The position numbers are program-made. Below are positions 26,201 through 32,200 of a stretch of DNA of 64,000 nucleotides, piece by piece; the stretch's first letter is position 1; each line of letters begins with the position of its first letter. Origin of the DNA: Rhina ancylostomus (Eukaryota); contig JARFYF010000064.1 of the NCBI GenBank assembly GCA_030265395.1, positions 18,477,262-18,541,261 of the forward strand. Reading direction: 5' to 3'.

Positions 26201-29200
26201 TTTCCATTCACTTGAGTGGAGAGGAACTGCTATAAAGGACCAAGTAGGTTTATTTAATTTTTAAAATTATTTTTTAAAGCAATACGATTGCTTTGTTTTA
26301 ATTTAAACAAGTCTAATTTGTTTTTTAATTGCTTAAATTAAGAGTTTTATTTTCAATGTTTGAACACTCAGAAGCTGTTGTTTTAAGCCAAAGGATAGGA
26401 CCTAGCCAATTGTCAATGAATCTTACTTGACATCTTTGCAGGCAGTGCTAGTTCCTACAGCCACCTTCCTCCCAACCACATGATGGGATTTATTTCTGGA
26501 AGGCCCTGTCAAAACACATGGCTTCATAATGGAGGACAGAATGGATGCCCGGCTTTGAGCAGCAAGCAATCCTCAGGAAATCGGCACTGGGATCGTACCA
26601 ATTATTCCACAGGTCAGAGGCGAATACGGAAGCTCACAGAGACTGCAAAATCTCAGTCAATACTTCAGCTGAGACCTAACCAATGACTCACACAGCTTCT
26701 TTGTTTTGTACTCTGCTTCAGTCCAAGAAGTGAGACTATATTTTTCTAATAATGCTTCAAGAAAGAAATGGATCAAATCAATGCTTCAAAATGCTAAAAG
26801 GAAATCATCACAAGTATGTTTCTTAATAAAGCACCAAGTATTTGAACACTTAGTTTTTTCTTGAACTAACCTGATGTTGGACAATTATACGTTGTTGATG
26901 CATAGCCACCACTTTGCCTCTGTGAGCGTTTTGGTGTGTAGCGGTGCCATTCCTGTAGCTCCAAAGATAAACGTTCTTCACTTGTATTGTATCTGGGAAC
27001 TGGGGAGCAAGATGCATGACTCTCATAGTGCGAATGAGGGTCAACGTTTTCCTGTGAATATAAACAATGTCCTCAATCATCAGTTGTCAACAGTCACTCA
27101 TGAAAAGATAAAAGCAATTCCAGATTCTTTTCTGAACTTGCCTTCCCATACCCTTTAAGTGACTTGTAATCACTTTTTCTGTATTGCACTTAGTATTTCA
27201 GAGTGCCACATCACTTATCTTGCTAAAAAAGGAACCCACTTGTGTACAACCACGCAAGAAGAGTTGACATTAATTGTGTTTAAAATTGCCTTCTATTTTC
27301 CTCCACCCCAAGTTCCTTAAATTTCCCAAAACAGCAACGATTGGTATAATTGAAATCAATTGCATCTATCCACATCATTTCCATTATATCTTCCCAATAT
27401 CCTTTTCAGTTCTCAGTTTTAAAATGCAATATTTTACAGAGAATTGCCAACCTTTCTTTTATAATGCAACTTCTGCAATAAACCATACCTGTCAAGGTTC
27501 TGAGTTCTGGCCCTCAATTTGGCTCCTTTAATGCCTTGTTGTCCAGCACATGCAGTCAATGCTGGACTGATTACATAACGACACACACCTGAGCCCCATC
27601 AGGGGCCTAGCATAAGTGCCTGGGTTTCTCTAGCACTAGTTGCCAGAGTATTGGTCNNNNNNNNNNNNNNNNNNNNNNNNNNNNNNNNNNNNNNNNNNNN
27701 NNNNNNNNNNNNNNNNNNNNNNNNNNNNNNNNNNNNNNNNNNNNNNNNNNNNNNNNGCTCCTAGTGCTTAGAGTGGTCTACTCCAGAGCAGTCCTGTGTT
27801 CTCTATTTCTTTCTGCAGATCCAGTTTGTGTTGGGATTCCTCTTCAGATCTCTGAGGCAAGATTCCTTCCTGTTGCTGCCTGTGTTTTGTCCAGAGGAAG
27901 TATCCTGACTCCAGGCTTGTATCGGTGTGCTGCATTTGGGTTCTCTATAAGCTTGCTGTTTGATCAACATCGTGACAATACCAGCTGCAGCAGAACTTGT
28001 AAGCCTTCCTTCTGGTAATACTGACCCCATAAATGGGATGCACAACAACAGAACTCATCCATAACCCTTCTGATTACATTTTGATCTCAACCACTTTCCT
28101 TAAATCTACTTAATATTGCAGTTATTCATAAAATTTTGTTCTACAATATGCATCTGCCCAAACTTAAAGTATTTGCTATCGTTATGTTTCAGACCTGTTT
28201 CAATGGTCTCCCAACATCATCCCTTCTAAAAAATCAGAGGTAAGGTAGGGAAATGGGATATTGGAATATTATGTGAAGGCAGAATTAAGGTAGTGGATCA
28301 GTTCTGACCTCATGAATGGAAGAAAATGATTAAATGGATCGATTTGCCTACTCATCATCCTCTTACTTTACGAGTACCCAATTGAAAAGTTGACTTGCTA
28401 TTCCTTCTCCAGTTTGATCCCATTTTAAATAATCTTTAGGCACTGACACCATACATTTATATAATTATCTTACCCAATGACCACAAAGTAAATGCTTTGC
28501 TCAACTACTCCAACTAAGAATATTTTGCCTAAAGATATTTCATGAGATCTTGAAAATTTGTCAGAAATATGGTTTAAGAACTACTACATTATCAAATCAT
28601 CACTAGATTATGTGAAGCCAGATATTTATCTCAGTACACAGGCAAACTGCTGTTTCCTGCGAGATGTGATTGGTAATCCAGTAGGTCACTATGGTTAGAG
28701 TCATAGAATCAGAGTTATACAGTACGGAAAACATGCCCTTCGGCCCAACTCATCCATGCTGACCAAGTTGCTACCTGAACTAGTCACATTTGCCTGCGTT
28801 TGGGCTCATATTCCATCTAAACCCTTCCTATCCATGTATCTGTCCAACTGTCTTTTAAATATTGTAACTGTACCTATAACTACCACTTCCCTTGGTAACT
28901 CGTTCCATATTTGCACCACCCTGTGTGGTGGTTGGTCAACGTCTGTTCACAGGTTCTACCTCCTCAACTTGCTGATTACCTTCTTCTTCAGGGGAAATCC
29001 TTGAAGGTATTAAATCACTCCCTTCTAAGAATGGTGTTGGCTGATAATGGCCAGTGTTTCTATCATGAACTTCTTGCGTGGTGTCCTGCTTTACTCCAAG
29101 GGCAACAGGTGATTGAGGCCTGGCAGGACTTGATGGAGGTGACCCACTGGTTGCTGCAGTATTTGAAGCAGAGCTAGCTTGCTGTTTATGTTTAAATTTA

Positions 29201-32200
29201 AATGAATCACTCCCCTTAGGAGGCATGGGAGGCATTGAGCCAGATTCACCGCCCACCACCCTCAGGTCTCCTTTAAGTCTTTCCCCTCTCACCTTAAACC
29301 TATGCCTTTTAGTTTTAGACTCCCCTACCCTGGGAAAAAGACTGTGACCATTTACCTCATTTATTCCCCTCCAGTTTGCCCATTCAATCACGTCCAAAGA
29401 ATCCTTCTGGGGAAATTTCAAGCACAATGTTTCACTTTGGGCTGATTAAAGGTTTCACGCAATGGCTTGCATGGTCAGCTAAACGTGGGCAGAGCAGCAT
29501 AGTGGTAAAGTTGCTGTATTATTACTTGTGATGCCAATATTTTCTCTTCTCCCTCCTCCCGGCAGGCACAAGATACAAACGCCTGAAAGCATGTACCACC
29601 AGCCTCAAGAACAGCTTCTAACTTGCTGTTATAAGACTATTGAACGGTCCCCTAGTACGATAAGATGGACTCTTGACCTTACAATCTACCTCGTTATGAC
29701 CTTGCACCTTAATGTCTGCCTGCACTGCACTTTCTCTGTAACTGCAACACTTTATGCATTCTGTTATTATTTCCTTTGTACTACCTCAATGCACTGTTGT
29801 AATGAAATGATCTGCACAGACAGCATGCAACACAAGTTTTTCACTGTACCTCAGTACATGTAACAATAATAAACCAATTTACCAATACTAGTTATCTGGA
29901 TATTATAGTTACAATCCTAATAATTACAGACTGATGAGTATGAACCTCTCATATTGTTGCAAAAACCCATCTGATTTACTTTCTAGGTCTACTTGCATGT
30001 AACTACAAACCATTGCAATGTGGTTGATCCTTAACTCTTTATGAAATGGCCTAGCAAACCATTCAGTATAGGGAAAACTATGGGGGCACTATAAGAGTTG
30101 GCTAAGACTGTGAACCTGCACGTTCTGTGACCAAGTGAACAAAATAAAATGAACATGCTGGAACTCATTAGCTTGATTCAATCCTTAATAATGGTCACGA
30201 GGACCAAACATAAAATGTACCTGCTGAGCTGGATCTAAGCAAATCATCAGCACCTTAATGAAAGAATGTAAAATTTCTAACTATTTTGCATCATGGTCAA
30301 TAAATGGGTATGTATGTAGGTGTTCTCATCTTAAATCTGCTAAAATTCAAAACTGTCTAGGTAATAAAACATTTTAATGATTATAAAAATGCACATTTCT
30401 ATCCCCTCAAAGTCCCACCTATGCTGGCTATCTTAGTTCTAACCAATGGTATGCTCATGCTTCATTTTACACTGTTAATGATCCTCTCAATAATTTCAGA
30501 AGTTTGAAAAGCAACACAAAACTCAGCATCCTCAGAGATTCCCACATTTATATTTTTCAAAGTAAGCAAATGACTTACTTATGTCAATGTCACTCGGGCA
30601 TTCAGTCTGTTCACACACTTCAACCTGGTAGAATCTACAGTACAATCATTAACAGATCTGTGCAGGAATTAACAAGCCACAAACCCGCAATGAGGAAGTC
30701 TAGTTGCTTTTCTACTGATCATAAGTTTTCAATCCAAATAATGTTATGTTTTTACATCTACCAATTGGTTGGGTAAACAATATCCTTGTTAATTCTCACC
30801 TCGTGACATTAGAATAAATCAAATCAACTAGTCCAATTTGAAGGACAAAGGGGAATTATCAAAATACCATTTATTGTTTGCTTATTTTTTCACCCACATG
30901 AAGCTCTCCAGCCTTCTGTACATTCTCATAAGGCAACTGACAATGGTCTTATCAGAGGTACACTGGACATGGTCTCGACAGGGAGGATTGATATCAACCA
31001 ATCAGACTTGAAGGTAGAATCACTATATTTTAATTGTAGAGGAGTCTAATTCAACAAATAGATGGACCTTACCATTAACTCAGCTGATGAATGTTAACTA
31101 TCTACATAAGACGTGAAAAGTCTGATGTCCAATGACTGTCCTCTGTACATTTTTTTTCTGAAAAGTTTGTCAGTCACTCTAGTTGCTTTTTCCTGGATCT
31201 TGATAATCAGGCTTCTCTCAAAAGTCAAGGGTTCAACACTTACAAGCAGCAGCAAATATACAGAAATGCTACTTCCTTTTCCAATTGTTCCTCTCACCAC
31301 CAAAATTTAGTTTGTAATTGACTTAAGTGACAATCAACTCATTCAAATCTGTAACTGTTTCCATGTTTATAAGGTCAACACTATCGTAATGATTTTAAAA
31401 CAATCATTGAAATTCATGTAATTAACAAATTACCTGAGGGGACAGTCCAGAAATATTCAAAGGGGCAAGTTTGCTTGGCCTTAAAGCAGGAGCAGATTTT
31501 GGTCGACGTCTGTTCACAGGTTCTACCTCCTCAACTCGCTGATTACCTTCTTCTTCAAGGGAAATCCTTGAAAGTATTAAAGCACTCCCTTCTAAGAATG
31601 GTGTTGGCTGATAATGGCCAGCATTTCTACCATGAACTTCTTGCGTGGTGTCCTGCTTTACTCCAAGGGCAACAGGTGATTGAGGCCCGGCAGGACTTGA
31701 TGGAGGTGACCCACTGGTTGCTGCAGTATCTGAAGCAGAGCTAGTTTGCTGTTTATGTTTAAATTTAAATGAATCACTCCTCTTAGGAGGCGTGGGAGGC
31801 GTTGAGCCAGATTCACTCTTTGAGGACTGCGAAGAATGTGTCTGCTTTTGTGTTGGGGACAGATAATCCATTTTTGGAGGAGTCTGTGGCCTTTTGAAAT
31901 TATCTGGATCAAAGACAGGCTTCCTCTGTTTTGGCATTTTGAATATGGAGAGTTTCCCAGGTTCAGGTGAAACGTCCACCATTGTTTTTGGCCAGGTGCC
32001 ACCGTTATGTTTAGGACTGTGCCCCTTTTCAGCATCAGTATCTACCACCACACAATCTGCAACTGCTGGGTCAAAGGTGAAACACCTTTTCTCGTGCTCT
32101 GCAATCCCATAGATCTCCGAGCTGAGAGGACCAACTTTAAGTTCTGAATAGTTGCAGCAAGTGTGTTCAGCTGTCCTGTATGTATTAGGCTGCAAAGAAC

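What the first reader, a model, noticed from the sequence alone, without database searches (positions are those of the whole stretch)
28905..29370. Fragment of the gene's own exon captured inside an intronic CR1, in frame with CR1 ORF2
Seen: 28932-29249 is an ungapped, same-orientation copy of exon segment 31499-31816, 2567 bp away. It has 14 mismatches in 318 bp, about half at CpG sites. It splits a CR1 3' end and replaces the short 'aaaaag..gcc' stretch present in another CR1 here (compare 62270-62287). Both junctions carry locally templated filler: caccaccct appears at 28914-28922 and again at 29254-29262, and gtggtgg on the left is its inverted copy. On the sense strand, CR1 ORF2 C-terminus (..FKVRGERLKGDLR) reads in frame into DLG5 peptide (ESGS..SDSFKFKHK..PVNRR) until a CGA>TGA stop. 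Inference: a templated insertion from double-strand-break repair (Pol theta/MMBIR-like), or CR1 RT switching onto DLG5 RNA. The direct repeat could also promote gene conversion or a deletion removing the exon's donor.
Basis: partly seen in the sequence, partly recalled or inferred. Interest (0 to 1): 0.72.

Follow-up and report, generated by a model that had tools for sequence, protein, structure and literature searches.

The report
Exon fragment copied into intronic LINE
A 318-base piece of a DLG5 exon was copied into an old retrotransposon remnant in the next intron of a ray-like fish genome, most likely as a patch laid down during repair of a broken chromosome, and it has been decaying as junk ever since.

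Summary
28932-29249 is an ungapped, same-strand copy of 31499-31816: 318 nt, 14 mismatches, start-to-start spacing 2567, and only these two copies in the window. The source lies inside the large exon (32459-31434, minus strand) of a DLG5(a) gene whose closest named relative is Pristis pectinata at 97%. The copy sits in the following intron. It interrupts a 5'-truncated LINE tail: the two flanks align to adjacent parts of other copies, and about 13-18 nt present there are missing here. There is no poly(A) and no target-site duplication. A few extra bases sit at both junctions, and these are only partly attributable to local templates. The copy is decaying. Thirteen of the 14 differences change the peptide, one of them to a stop. 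At least 10 arose in the copy. It has lost 5 of 7 CpGs. Reading in frame from LINE ORF2 is true at one junction only and is a 1-in-3 coincidence. Best reading: a one-off templated patch laid down during break repair, with no function. It is a new member of a known kind. The "CR1" label and genome-wide uniqueness could not be tested here.

The parts
28700..29371 (-). 5'-truncated 3' fragment of a LINE (CR1-like by recall only). The sense strand is the gene's strand. About 340 nt belong to the LINE and the rest is the nested insertion. The ORF2 remnant is broken by one 5' truncation, one nested insertion with a small loss of LINE bases, one change of frame across that insertion, and one early stop.
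   Evidence: Flanks 28702-28928 and 29258-29371 align at 72-84% to other copies at 1298-966, 12705-12473, 55343-55177, 35922-35643 and 18981-18937. Minus-strand translations show the shared coding-like tail. The 41-aa tail finds 103 representative proteins at E<=0.001. There is no poly(A) at the 3' end.
28932..29249 (-). Copy of an internal segment of the DLG5 large exon, a pseudo-exon fragment in the same orientation as the gene.
   Evidence: 318 nt ungapped, 14 mismatches to 31499-31816. tblastn with Pristis DLG5a aa 917-1021 gives 87.6%. 13 of the 14 differences are nonsynonymous and one of them is a stop. 2 of the source's 7 CpGs are kept.
28929..28931 (.). Three extra bases (TGG) at the left junction, belonging neither to the LINE alignment nor to the exon copy.
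   Evidence: The LINE alignment to the 12.5-kb copy ends at 28928 and the exon identity starts at 28932. Two explanations fit: fold-back on ACCACC 28915-28920, or copying from 32044-32054.
29250..29260 (.). Right-junction stretch of 4-11 nt whose origin is ambiguous. It is filler, partly a repeat of the left flank's CACCACCCT, or partly the LINE's own sequence.
   Evidence: Exon identity ends at 29249. BLAST alignments to other LINE copies resume at 29258-29261. MAFFT places 29254 onward against LINE sequence. The 9-mer 29254-29262 equals 28914-28922.
31499..31816 (-). Source segment inside the exon. It ends 65 nt before the exon's donor side.
31434..32459 (-). Large DLG5 exon (linker region). 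The bounds are those of the tblastn block, give or take a few nt.
   Evidence: Pristis P0074 aa 702-1043 matches at 96.2% over 342 aa. 732 DLG5-type hits, best 97%.
26818..27063 (-). Next DLG5 exon block. The intron between the two exons (27064-31433, holding an N run at 27657-27756) contains the LINE and the copy.
32044..32054 (+). 11-mer in the same exon that is the reverse complement of the left-junction text 28922-28932. It is a possible first template contact.
   Evidence: Found. 14 of 1000 shuffles of the 8.5-kb surroundings give an 11-mer or longer. This is a post hoc observation.

Best explanation
This is a one-off templated patch insertion made during repair of a germline chromosome break.

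An old, 5'-truncated LINE tail already lay in the intron downstream of the large DLG5 exon, in the gene's orientation. The DNA broke in or beside the LINE's A-rich run, and roughly 9-17 nt were lost. A broken end then primed DNA synthesis by very short homology on the nearby exon, 2.2-2.9 kb away on the same or the sister chromatid. It copied 318 nt, let go, and was joined to the other end. This left 3 extra bases on one side and 4-11 on the other.

Shown: the copy, its bounds, the interrupted LINE, the small loss, the extra bases, the absence of poly(A) and of a target-site duplication, and the neutral decay of the copy.

Inferred: the break itself, the order of the steps, the polymerases involved, and that the template was DNA rather than RNA.

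The product has no function. It is a decaying pseudo-exon fragment, and its reading in frame from the LINE remnant is coincidence.
For: - Copy and bounds.
- Single interrupted element: the two flanks align to adjacent parts of three other copies. Those copies carry 13, 18 and 28 nt where this locus carries 332, 345 and 359 nt (alignments).
- The A-rich run that all 4 aligned copies carry at that point is absent here.
- There is no A-tract at either end of the insert, and no duplication abutting both junctions.
- Junction extras. The 9-mer shared with the left flank arises in 348 of 100000 random fillers. The 11-mer inverted match inside the same exon arises in 14 of 1000 shuffles.
- Decay. 13 of 14 differences are nonsynonymous, including one stop. 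At 10 of these 13 sites the exon residue is the one in at least 9 of 13 orthologues, while the copy's residue occurs in at most 1. At 2 sites the copy keeps the orthologues' residue and the exon has changed. The copy keeps 2 of the source's 7 CpGs.
- The peptide occurs once in each of 15 orthologous proteins, so it is not an annotated duplicated exon.
- Literature. Class 2 templated sequence insertions are defined by no TSD, no poly(A), microdeletion, microhomology and non-templated bases (PMC5110952, section 9 read). Pol theta insertions are 2-35 bp, copied from adjacent or kb-distant sequence (PMC7454005, passages read). MMBIR makes templated insertions by template switching at microhomology (PMC8421209, abstract and passages read).
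Against: - No pre-insertion allele was seen, so the break and the loss are inferred only from diverged sister copies (72-84% identity).
- At 318 nt the insert is far longer than the 2-35 bp reported for Pol theta insertions, so another synthesis mode must be assumed for the main insert.
- Microhomology at the two ends of the 318 nt is at most 1 nt on the left and cannot be assessed on the right.
- The junction-filler statistics are post hoc. They weaken if part of the 9-mer is LINE sequence.
- The segment lies within a single exon, so nothing separates a DNA template from an RNA template.
- Uniqueness in the genome was not tested, because no eukaryotic genome collection was available.
Confidence: 0.6

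Rival explanations
1. RNA-templated patch. The break in the intron was repaired using the gene's own transcript, either directly or after reverse transcription into a cDNA fragment, as proposed for class 2 templated sequence insertions.
For: - The junction features are those of class 2 TSIPs, which the authors derive from RNA (PMC5110952, outline and section 9 read).
- The break lies in a transcribed gene, so DLG5 RNA would be present locally.
- The insert has the gene's sense orientation and is purely exonic.
- Reverse transcriptase sources (LINEs) are plentiful in this genome region.
Against: - No RNA hallmark is present. No splice junction is crossed and there is no poly(A).
- Published TSIPs come from distant loci. 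A source only 2.2 kb away in cis is simply explained by DNA proximity.
- The possible first contact at 32044-32054 is on the opposite strand, which fits a DNA duplex better than a single-stranded transcript.
Confidence: 0.2
2. The LINE's own reverse transcriptase switched from LINE RNA to DLG5 RNA and back while the element was inserting. The chimera would then be as old as the LINE copy.
For: The LINE and the cargo have the same sense orientation. The upstream LINE piece reads in frame into the cargo. LINE-mediated chimeras made by template switching are known for L1 (recalled; PMC4476161 seen in a search listing only).
Against: - It needs two switches, with the return landing within about 13-18 nt of the departure point on the LINE RNA.
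- Known LINE chimeras switch once, toward the 5' side (recalled).
- Landing 2.2 kb from the cargo's own gene copy would be a further coincidence.
- The frame is not kept across the second junction.
- A protein search with the chimeric ORF found nothing: 43 candidates, none at E<=0.001. This is weak evidence.
Confidence: 0.05
3. Two-step origin: a tandem duplication of the 2567-bp unit 29250-31816, followed by a deletion that removed the first unit's LINE piece and intron part.
For: It gives the observed order of pieces and the 2567 spacing.
Against: It needs two events with coincident breakpoints, and it does not explain the extra bases at both junctions. No other remnant of a second unit exists in 27500-33500.
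Confidence: 0.05
4. Assembly artefact: a collapsed or misplaced read segment.
For: The window has 11 N runs, one of them in the same intron at 27657-27756.
Against: There are 14 differences with a CpG-decay pattern. The junctions are clean and lie inside a recognisable LINE. No N lies between the copy and the source.
Confidence: 0.02

Closest known systems
Class 2 templated sequence insertions / polymorphisms (TSI, TSIP; Onozawa and Aplan, PMC5110952)
   Same: A stretch copied from elsewhere is inserted at a break. There is no target-site duplication and no poly(A). A small deletion occurs at the recipient site, with a few unexplained bases at the junctions. The size is in the hundreds of bases.
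   Different: Here the template is 2.2 kb away in the same gene and on the same strand, not a distant locus. An RNA origin cannot be shown. The event is fixed in an assembled ray-like genome and is old, not a human polymorphism.
MMBIR / FoSTeS template-switch insertions (PMC8421209; names otherwise recalled)
   Same: The template lies nearby in cis. There may be more than one switch: a 4-nt inverted stretch, then 318 nt direct, then a short stretch from the opposite flank. Homology at the switch points is very short.
   Different: The MMB-TI class searched for in that paper is inverted and templated within 100 bp. Here the main insert is direct and 2.2-2.9 kb away. No accompanying copy-number change or larger rearrangement is seen in the window.
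Polymerase theta-mediated end joining with templated insertions (PMC7454005, PMC7165422; fold-back insertions in PMC11724301, abstract only)
   Same: The short junction extras look like flank-templated or fold-back synthesis primed on 2-4 nt. These are the 3 nt on the left and the 6-10 nt on the right that repeat the other flank.
   Different: The reported insertions are 2-35 bp. The 318-nt body is an order of magnitude longer.
LINE-mediated retrocopies and chimeric retrocopies (class 1 TSIP, L1 chimeras)
   Same: Host exon sequence sits next to LINE sequence in the same orientation.
   Different: There is no poly(A), no target-site duplication and no LINE 3' tail attached to the cargo. Instead the cargo is nested inside the LINE, with LINE sequence continuing on both sides.

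Membership tests
Class 2 templated sequence insertion (break-repair patch) | No target-site duplication abutting both junctions | tested here: met
   The bases next to the insert differ on the two sides. The repeated 9-mer lies 9 nt from one junction and 4 nt from the other, and it is not followed by the same LINE sequence.
Class 2 templated sequence insertion (break-repair patch) | No poly(A) tract or polyadenylation signal at the insert's 3' end | tested here: met
   The sense-strand 3' end of the insert (28932 side) runs straight into 3 extra bases and then LINE sequence.
Class 2 templated sequence insertion (break-repair patch) | Microdeletion, microhomology or non-templated bases at the recipient site | tested here: met
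   The A-rich run and a few bases that 4 of 4 aligned copies carry are missing. There are 3 and 4-11 extra bases at the junctions.
Class 2 templated sequence insertion (break-repair patch) | Template from a distant genomic region, derived from RNA | tested here: not met
   The template is 2567 nt away in cis. An RNA origin cannot be tested because the segment lies within one exon.
LINE-mediated (TPRT) insertion of host RNA, class 1 TSIP | Target-site duplication of at least 5 bp, a poly(A) tail, and insertion at a T-rich/A nick site | tested here: not met
   There is no TSD and no poly(A). The break does lie at an A-rich run, which alone is inconclusive.
Pol theta end joining with templated insertion | Short insert (2-35 bp) copied from flanking sequence and primed on microhomology | tested here: inconclusive
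   The junction extras fit: the 9-mer occurs in 348 of 100000 random fillers, and there is a 6-nt fold-back match. The attribution is ambiguous, and the 318-nt body does not fit the size range.
MMBIR/FoSTeS template switching | Microhomology at each switch, templates nearby, often several switches | tested here: inconclusive
   Nearby template: met. There is a possible 7-nt homology plus 4-nt copy at 32044-32054 (14 of 1000 shuffles). Homology is 1 nt at the start of the 318 nt, and the right side cannot be assessed.
CR1-clade LINE | ORF2 with endonuclease and reverse transcriptase domains of the CR1 clade | not testable with these tools
   The fragment is 5'-truncated, with only the last few dozen ORF2 codons left. 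No RT family was found in 146 of the window's 279 ORFs of 55 aa or more (the other 133 were not scanned), nor in 22 of the 103 relatives of the tail. The Atlas gave only 'hypothetical protein'. The label CR1 is recalled.
CR1-clade LINE | Dispersed, mostly 5'-truncated copies sharing a 3' end without poly(A) | tested here: met
   At least 5 other copies in the window have different 5' ends. There is no A-tract at the 3' ends.
DLG5 (disks large homolog 5) gene | Orthology to named DLG5 proteins, and the Dlg5-specific linker, PDZ and SH3 domains in colinear exons | tested here: met
   The best hit is Pristis pectinata DLG5a at 97%. 25 colinear exon blocks cover aa 197-1790. Pfam finds dbPDZ_assoc at E 9e-31 and PDZ at E 8e-11.

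The most novel reading that the evidence does not exclude
The patch was copied from the gene's own transcript rather than from DNA. That would make it a natural, fixed germline footprint of transcript-templated repair of a break inside the very gene that supplied the RNA, possibly using reverse transcriptase from the LINEs that crowd this locus.
Probability: 0.2. Interest if true: 0.6.

Novelty: new member of a known kind. Interest (0 to 1): 0.3.

Why it matters
The interest is modest.
- The locus is a clean, datable natural example of a several-hundred-base templated insertion in a cartilaginous-fish germline. Both junctions are readable because the recipient is a repeat with sister copies.
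- It preserves older states of the exon: 2 residues that the living exon has since changed.
- It is a rare genomic change that could serve as a shared-ancestry marker among rays if it is present in relatives.
- Practically, it is a trap for annotation and read mapping. A 106-codon DLG5-like open frame sits in an intron, and a 318-nt direct repeat at 95.6% flanks the exon's donor.

Tried and rejected
- Protein search with the chimeric open frame as it stands (28939-29445, minus strand), near lengths: 43 candidates, none at E<=0.001. No similar chimera is known as a predicted protein, but this is weak evidence.
- Representative-library search with the 41-aa LINE tail: 103 hits, all 42-477 aa. 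22 of them were scanned with Pfam. None carries an RT. Some carry unrelated host domains (Spectrin, RRM_1), as expected for a repeat caught in gene models. So there is no tool support for a clade name.
- ESM Atlas with the same tail: only unnamed clusters.
Not repeated.
- Pfam on 146 of the 279 window ORFs: DLG5 domains only, no RT.
- Tandem repeats in 26000-34000: none.
- Gene-conversion tracts between the two copies: the longest identical tract is 57 nt, and 7084 of 10000 random placements match or exceed it. Rejected.
- A 10-mer of the right junction at 32772 is at chance level, 63 of 1000 shuffles.
- The genome-contig scan was not used because it holds only bacteria and archaea. The phage, plasmid and E. 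coli collections are irrelevant here.
- No absolute age is given, because I have no tool-derived rate.
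Full report
**The repeat is real.**
- Read directly, 28932-29249 and 31499-31816 align without a gap over 318 nt with 14 mismatches (95.6%). The 40 nt beyond each end are unrelated.
- The repeat finder reports the 300-nt core at 96% with start-to-start spacing 2567.
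- BLAST of the 318 nt against the window returns two places only, itself and the source.
- No N lies between the two copies. The nearest N run is 27657-27756, and I left all N runs as they are.
- Thirteen mismatches are transitions and one is a transversion. Their spacing shows no unusually long identical tract: the longest is 57 nt, and 7084 of 10000 random placements match or exceed it.

**Gene context.**
- The minus-strand ORF over 31437-32441 finds 72 proteins at near lengths, including a named partial DLG5.
- At longer lengths it finds 732 hits among 3819 candidates. Pristis pectinata 'disks large homolog 5a' is best at 97% identity and full coverage, followed by skates at 86-87% and sharks at 75-84%.
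- I do not take the window for human. It is from a ray-like cartilaginous fish close to, but not identical with, Pristis pectinata.
- I mapped exons one by one as separate tblastn blocks and did not join them into a spliced model. That joined step was left out.
- Twenty-five colinear minus-strand blocks from 55842 to 49 cover aa 197-1790 of the 1937-aa Pristis protein. A 26th block (48164-47931) is matched only by an Amblyraja isoform.
- Pfam on single ORFs finds the Dlg5-specific dbPDZ_assoc, PDZ, and a weak SH3 (146 of 279 ORFs of 55 aa or more were scanned, those up to 33.7 kb).
- The source lies inside the large exon 32459-31434 and stops 65 nt short of its donor side. The next exon is 27063-26818.
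- The copy lies in the intron between them, in the gene's orientation, 2184 nt past the exon.
- The only extra DLG5-like block in the window is the copy.
- In each of the 15 orthologous proteins examined, the peptide occurs once.

**The recipient is one interrupted repeat.**
- Searched apart, the left flank (to 28928) and the right flank (from about 29258) align at 72-84% to adjacent parts of other copies at 1298-966, 12705-12473 and 55343-55177. There are partial matches at 35922-35643 and 18981-18937.
- Between the points where the two flank alignments stop and resume, those three copies have 18, 13 and 28 nt. This locus has 345, 332 and 359 nt.
It is missing here.
- On the minus strand the flanks encode the coding-like tail shared by the copies. 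The 3' end has no A-tract.
- The fragment is about 340 nt of LINE (28700-29371 minus the insert), so it is strongly 5'-truncated.
No tool confirmed it.
  - The 41-aa tail finds 103 representative proteins, all short at 42-477 aa.
  - 22 of them scanned by Pfam carry no RT.
  - The Atlas gives unnamed clusters.

**Junctions.**
- Left: the LINE alignment ends at 28928, three bases (TGG, 28929-28931) follow, and exon identity starts at 28932.
- GGTGGT (28927-28932) is the reverse complement of ACCACC (28915-28920).
  - The 11-mer 28922-28932 is also the reverse complement of 32044-32054, inside the same exon and 228 nt beyond the source segment. 14 of 1000 shuffles do as well. This is post hoc.
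- Right: exon identity ends at 29249 and clear LINE alignment resumes at 29258-29261.
  - In between, 29254-29262 repeats the left flank's CACCACCCT (28914-28922). A random 13-nt filler shares a 9-mer with the 100-nt flank in 348 of 100000 trials.
  - MAFFT aligns 29254 onward to LINE sequence of the other copies.
  - So three readings stand: 10-11 nt of filler, LINE bases kept with 6 nt inserted, or only 4-7 nt of filler.
- There is no target-site duplication abutting the insert and no poly(A).

**Fate of the copy.**
- I aligned the exon peptide and the copy peptide with 13 named orthologues. Two of the 15 were dropped first: Callorhinchus, which matched over 44 aa only, and Latimeria, at 58%.
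- One junction codon outside the copy was left out of the count.
- The 14 differences fall in 14 codons. Thirteen change the residue, one of them to a stop, and one is synonymous.
- At 10 of the 13 sites the exon has the residue found in 9-13 of the 13 orthologues, while the copy's residue is found in 0-1. These changes arose in the copy.
- At 2 sites the copy keeps the orthologues' residue (found in 12 and in 6 of 13), and the exon's residue is found in none. These changes arose in the exon.
- One site is undecided.
- The source has 7 CpGs. The copy keeps 2, and the other 5 read TG or CA. One further site has decayed on both sides.
- The copy therefore evolves without coding constraint, and it is old enough for the living exon to have moved on.
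- None of this genome's exon-specific changes is shared by the copy. The insertion may therefore be as old as the split from the Pristis lineage, but the numbers are small.

**Reading frame.** One minus-strand open frame (28939-29445) runs from the LINE ORF2-like peptide through three junction codons into the DLG5 frame, and it closes at a stop within the copy. This is a 1-in-3 outcome. The LINE piece beyond the copy is in another frame, the element has no 5' part, and the cargo decays neutrally. I attach no meaning to it.

**Mechanism.**
- The anatomy is that of a patch inserted at a break: a small loss at the recipient, a few extra bases at both joins, no TSD, no poly(A).
- These are the criteria given for class 2 templated sequence insertions (PMC5110952, section 9 read).
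- The short extras resemble polymerase-theta or fold-back synthesis. Reported sizes are 2-35 bp (PMC7454005, passages read) and about 5-34 bp (PMC11724301, abstract only).
- The 318-nt body needs a more processive template switch of the MMBIR kind (PMC8421209, abstract and passages read).
- A template 2.2-2.9 kb away in cis favours DNA, but the gene's own RNA cannot be excluded, since the segment crosses no splice site.
- Switching by the LINE's own RT during insertion would need two switches returning to within 13-18 nt on the LINE RNA. I rate it at 0.05.
- A tandem duplication followed by an exactly placed deletion is possible on paper but needs two coincident events.

**Not checked.**
- Other copies of the cargo in this genome, the orthologous intron in relatives, long reads and RNA-seq.
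- Searches for prior reports found nothing on such a nested exon patch. I ran 'CR1' with 'template switching', 'chimeric', 'retrotransposon' and 'exon' (7 papers), and 'templated sequence insertion' (19 papers). From these I read listings only, apart from the papers named above.
- I consulted no supplements.

**Verdict.** This is a real, ordinary-in-kind, nicely preserved templated insertion with no function. It is a new member of a known kind, and I score interest at 0.3.

Noticed in passing
window 49-55842, minus strand: Most of a DLG5(a) gene is present. 25 colinear exon blocks match aa 197-1790 of the 1937-aa Pristis pectinata protein, so the first and last exons lie outside the window.
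   Followed up: partly
window 47931-48164 and 17982-18062: Block 48164-47931 is matched only by the Amblyraja isoform P0081. Block 18062-17982 is matched only by the Pristis isoform P0074. These are likely alternatively used exons.
   Followed up: no
window 13376-14139 and 20163-20172: N runs lie 8 nt and 5 nt from exon blocks 13368-13228 and 20158-19997, so those exon boundaries cannot be read. They were left untouched.
   Followed up: no
window 966-1298, 12473-12705, 35643-35922, 55177-55343, 18937-18981, about 62100-62400: These are further 5'-truncated copies of the same LINE tail, at 72-84% identity to the one in the finding and in both orientations.
   Followed up: partly
window 29539-29700 and 52530-52680: A different dispersed repeat, 77% identical and in inverted orientation, begins about 170 nt beyond the LINE's truncated end.
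   Followed up: no
window 31499-31816 (source exon): This genome's exon has G and L where the intronic copy and 12 of 13 and 6 of 13 orthologues have D and P. The copy acts as a fossil of the older exon state.
   Followed up: yes
proteins P0261, P0271 (one search hits): Some database proteins that contain the LINE-tail peptide also carry host domains (RRM_1, Spectrin). They are probably gene models that swallowed a repeat.
   Followed up: no
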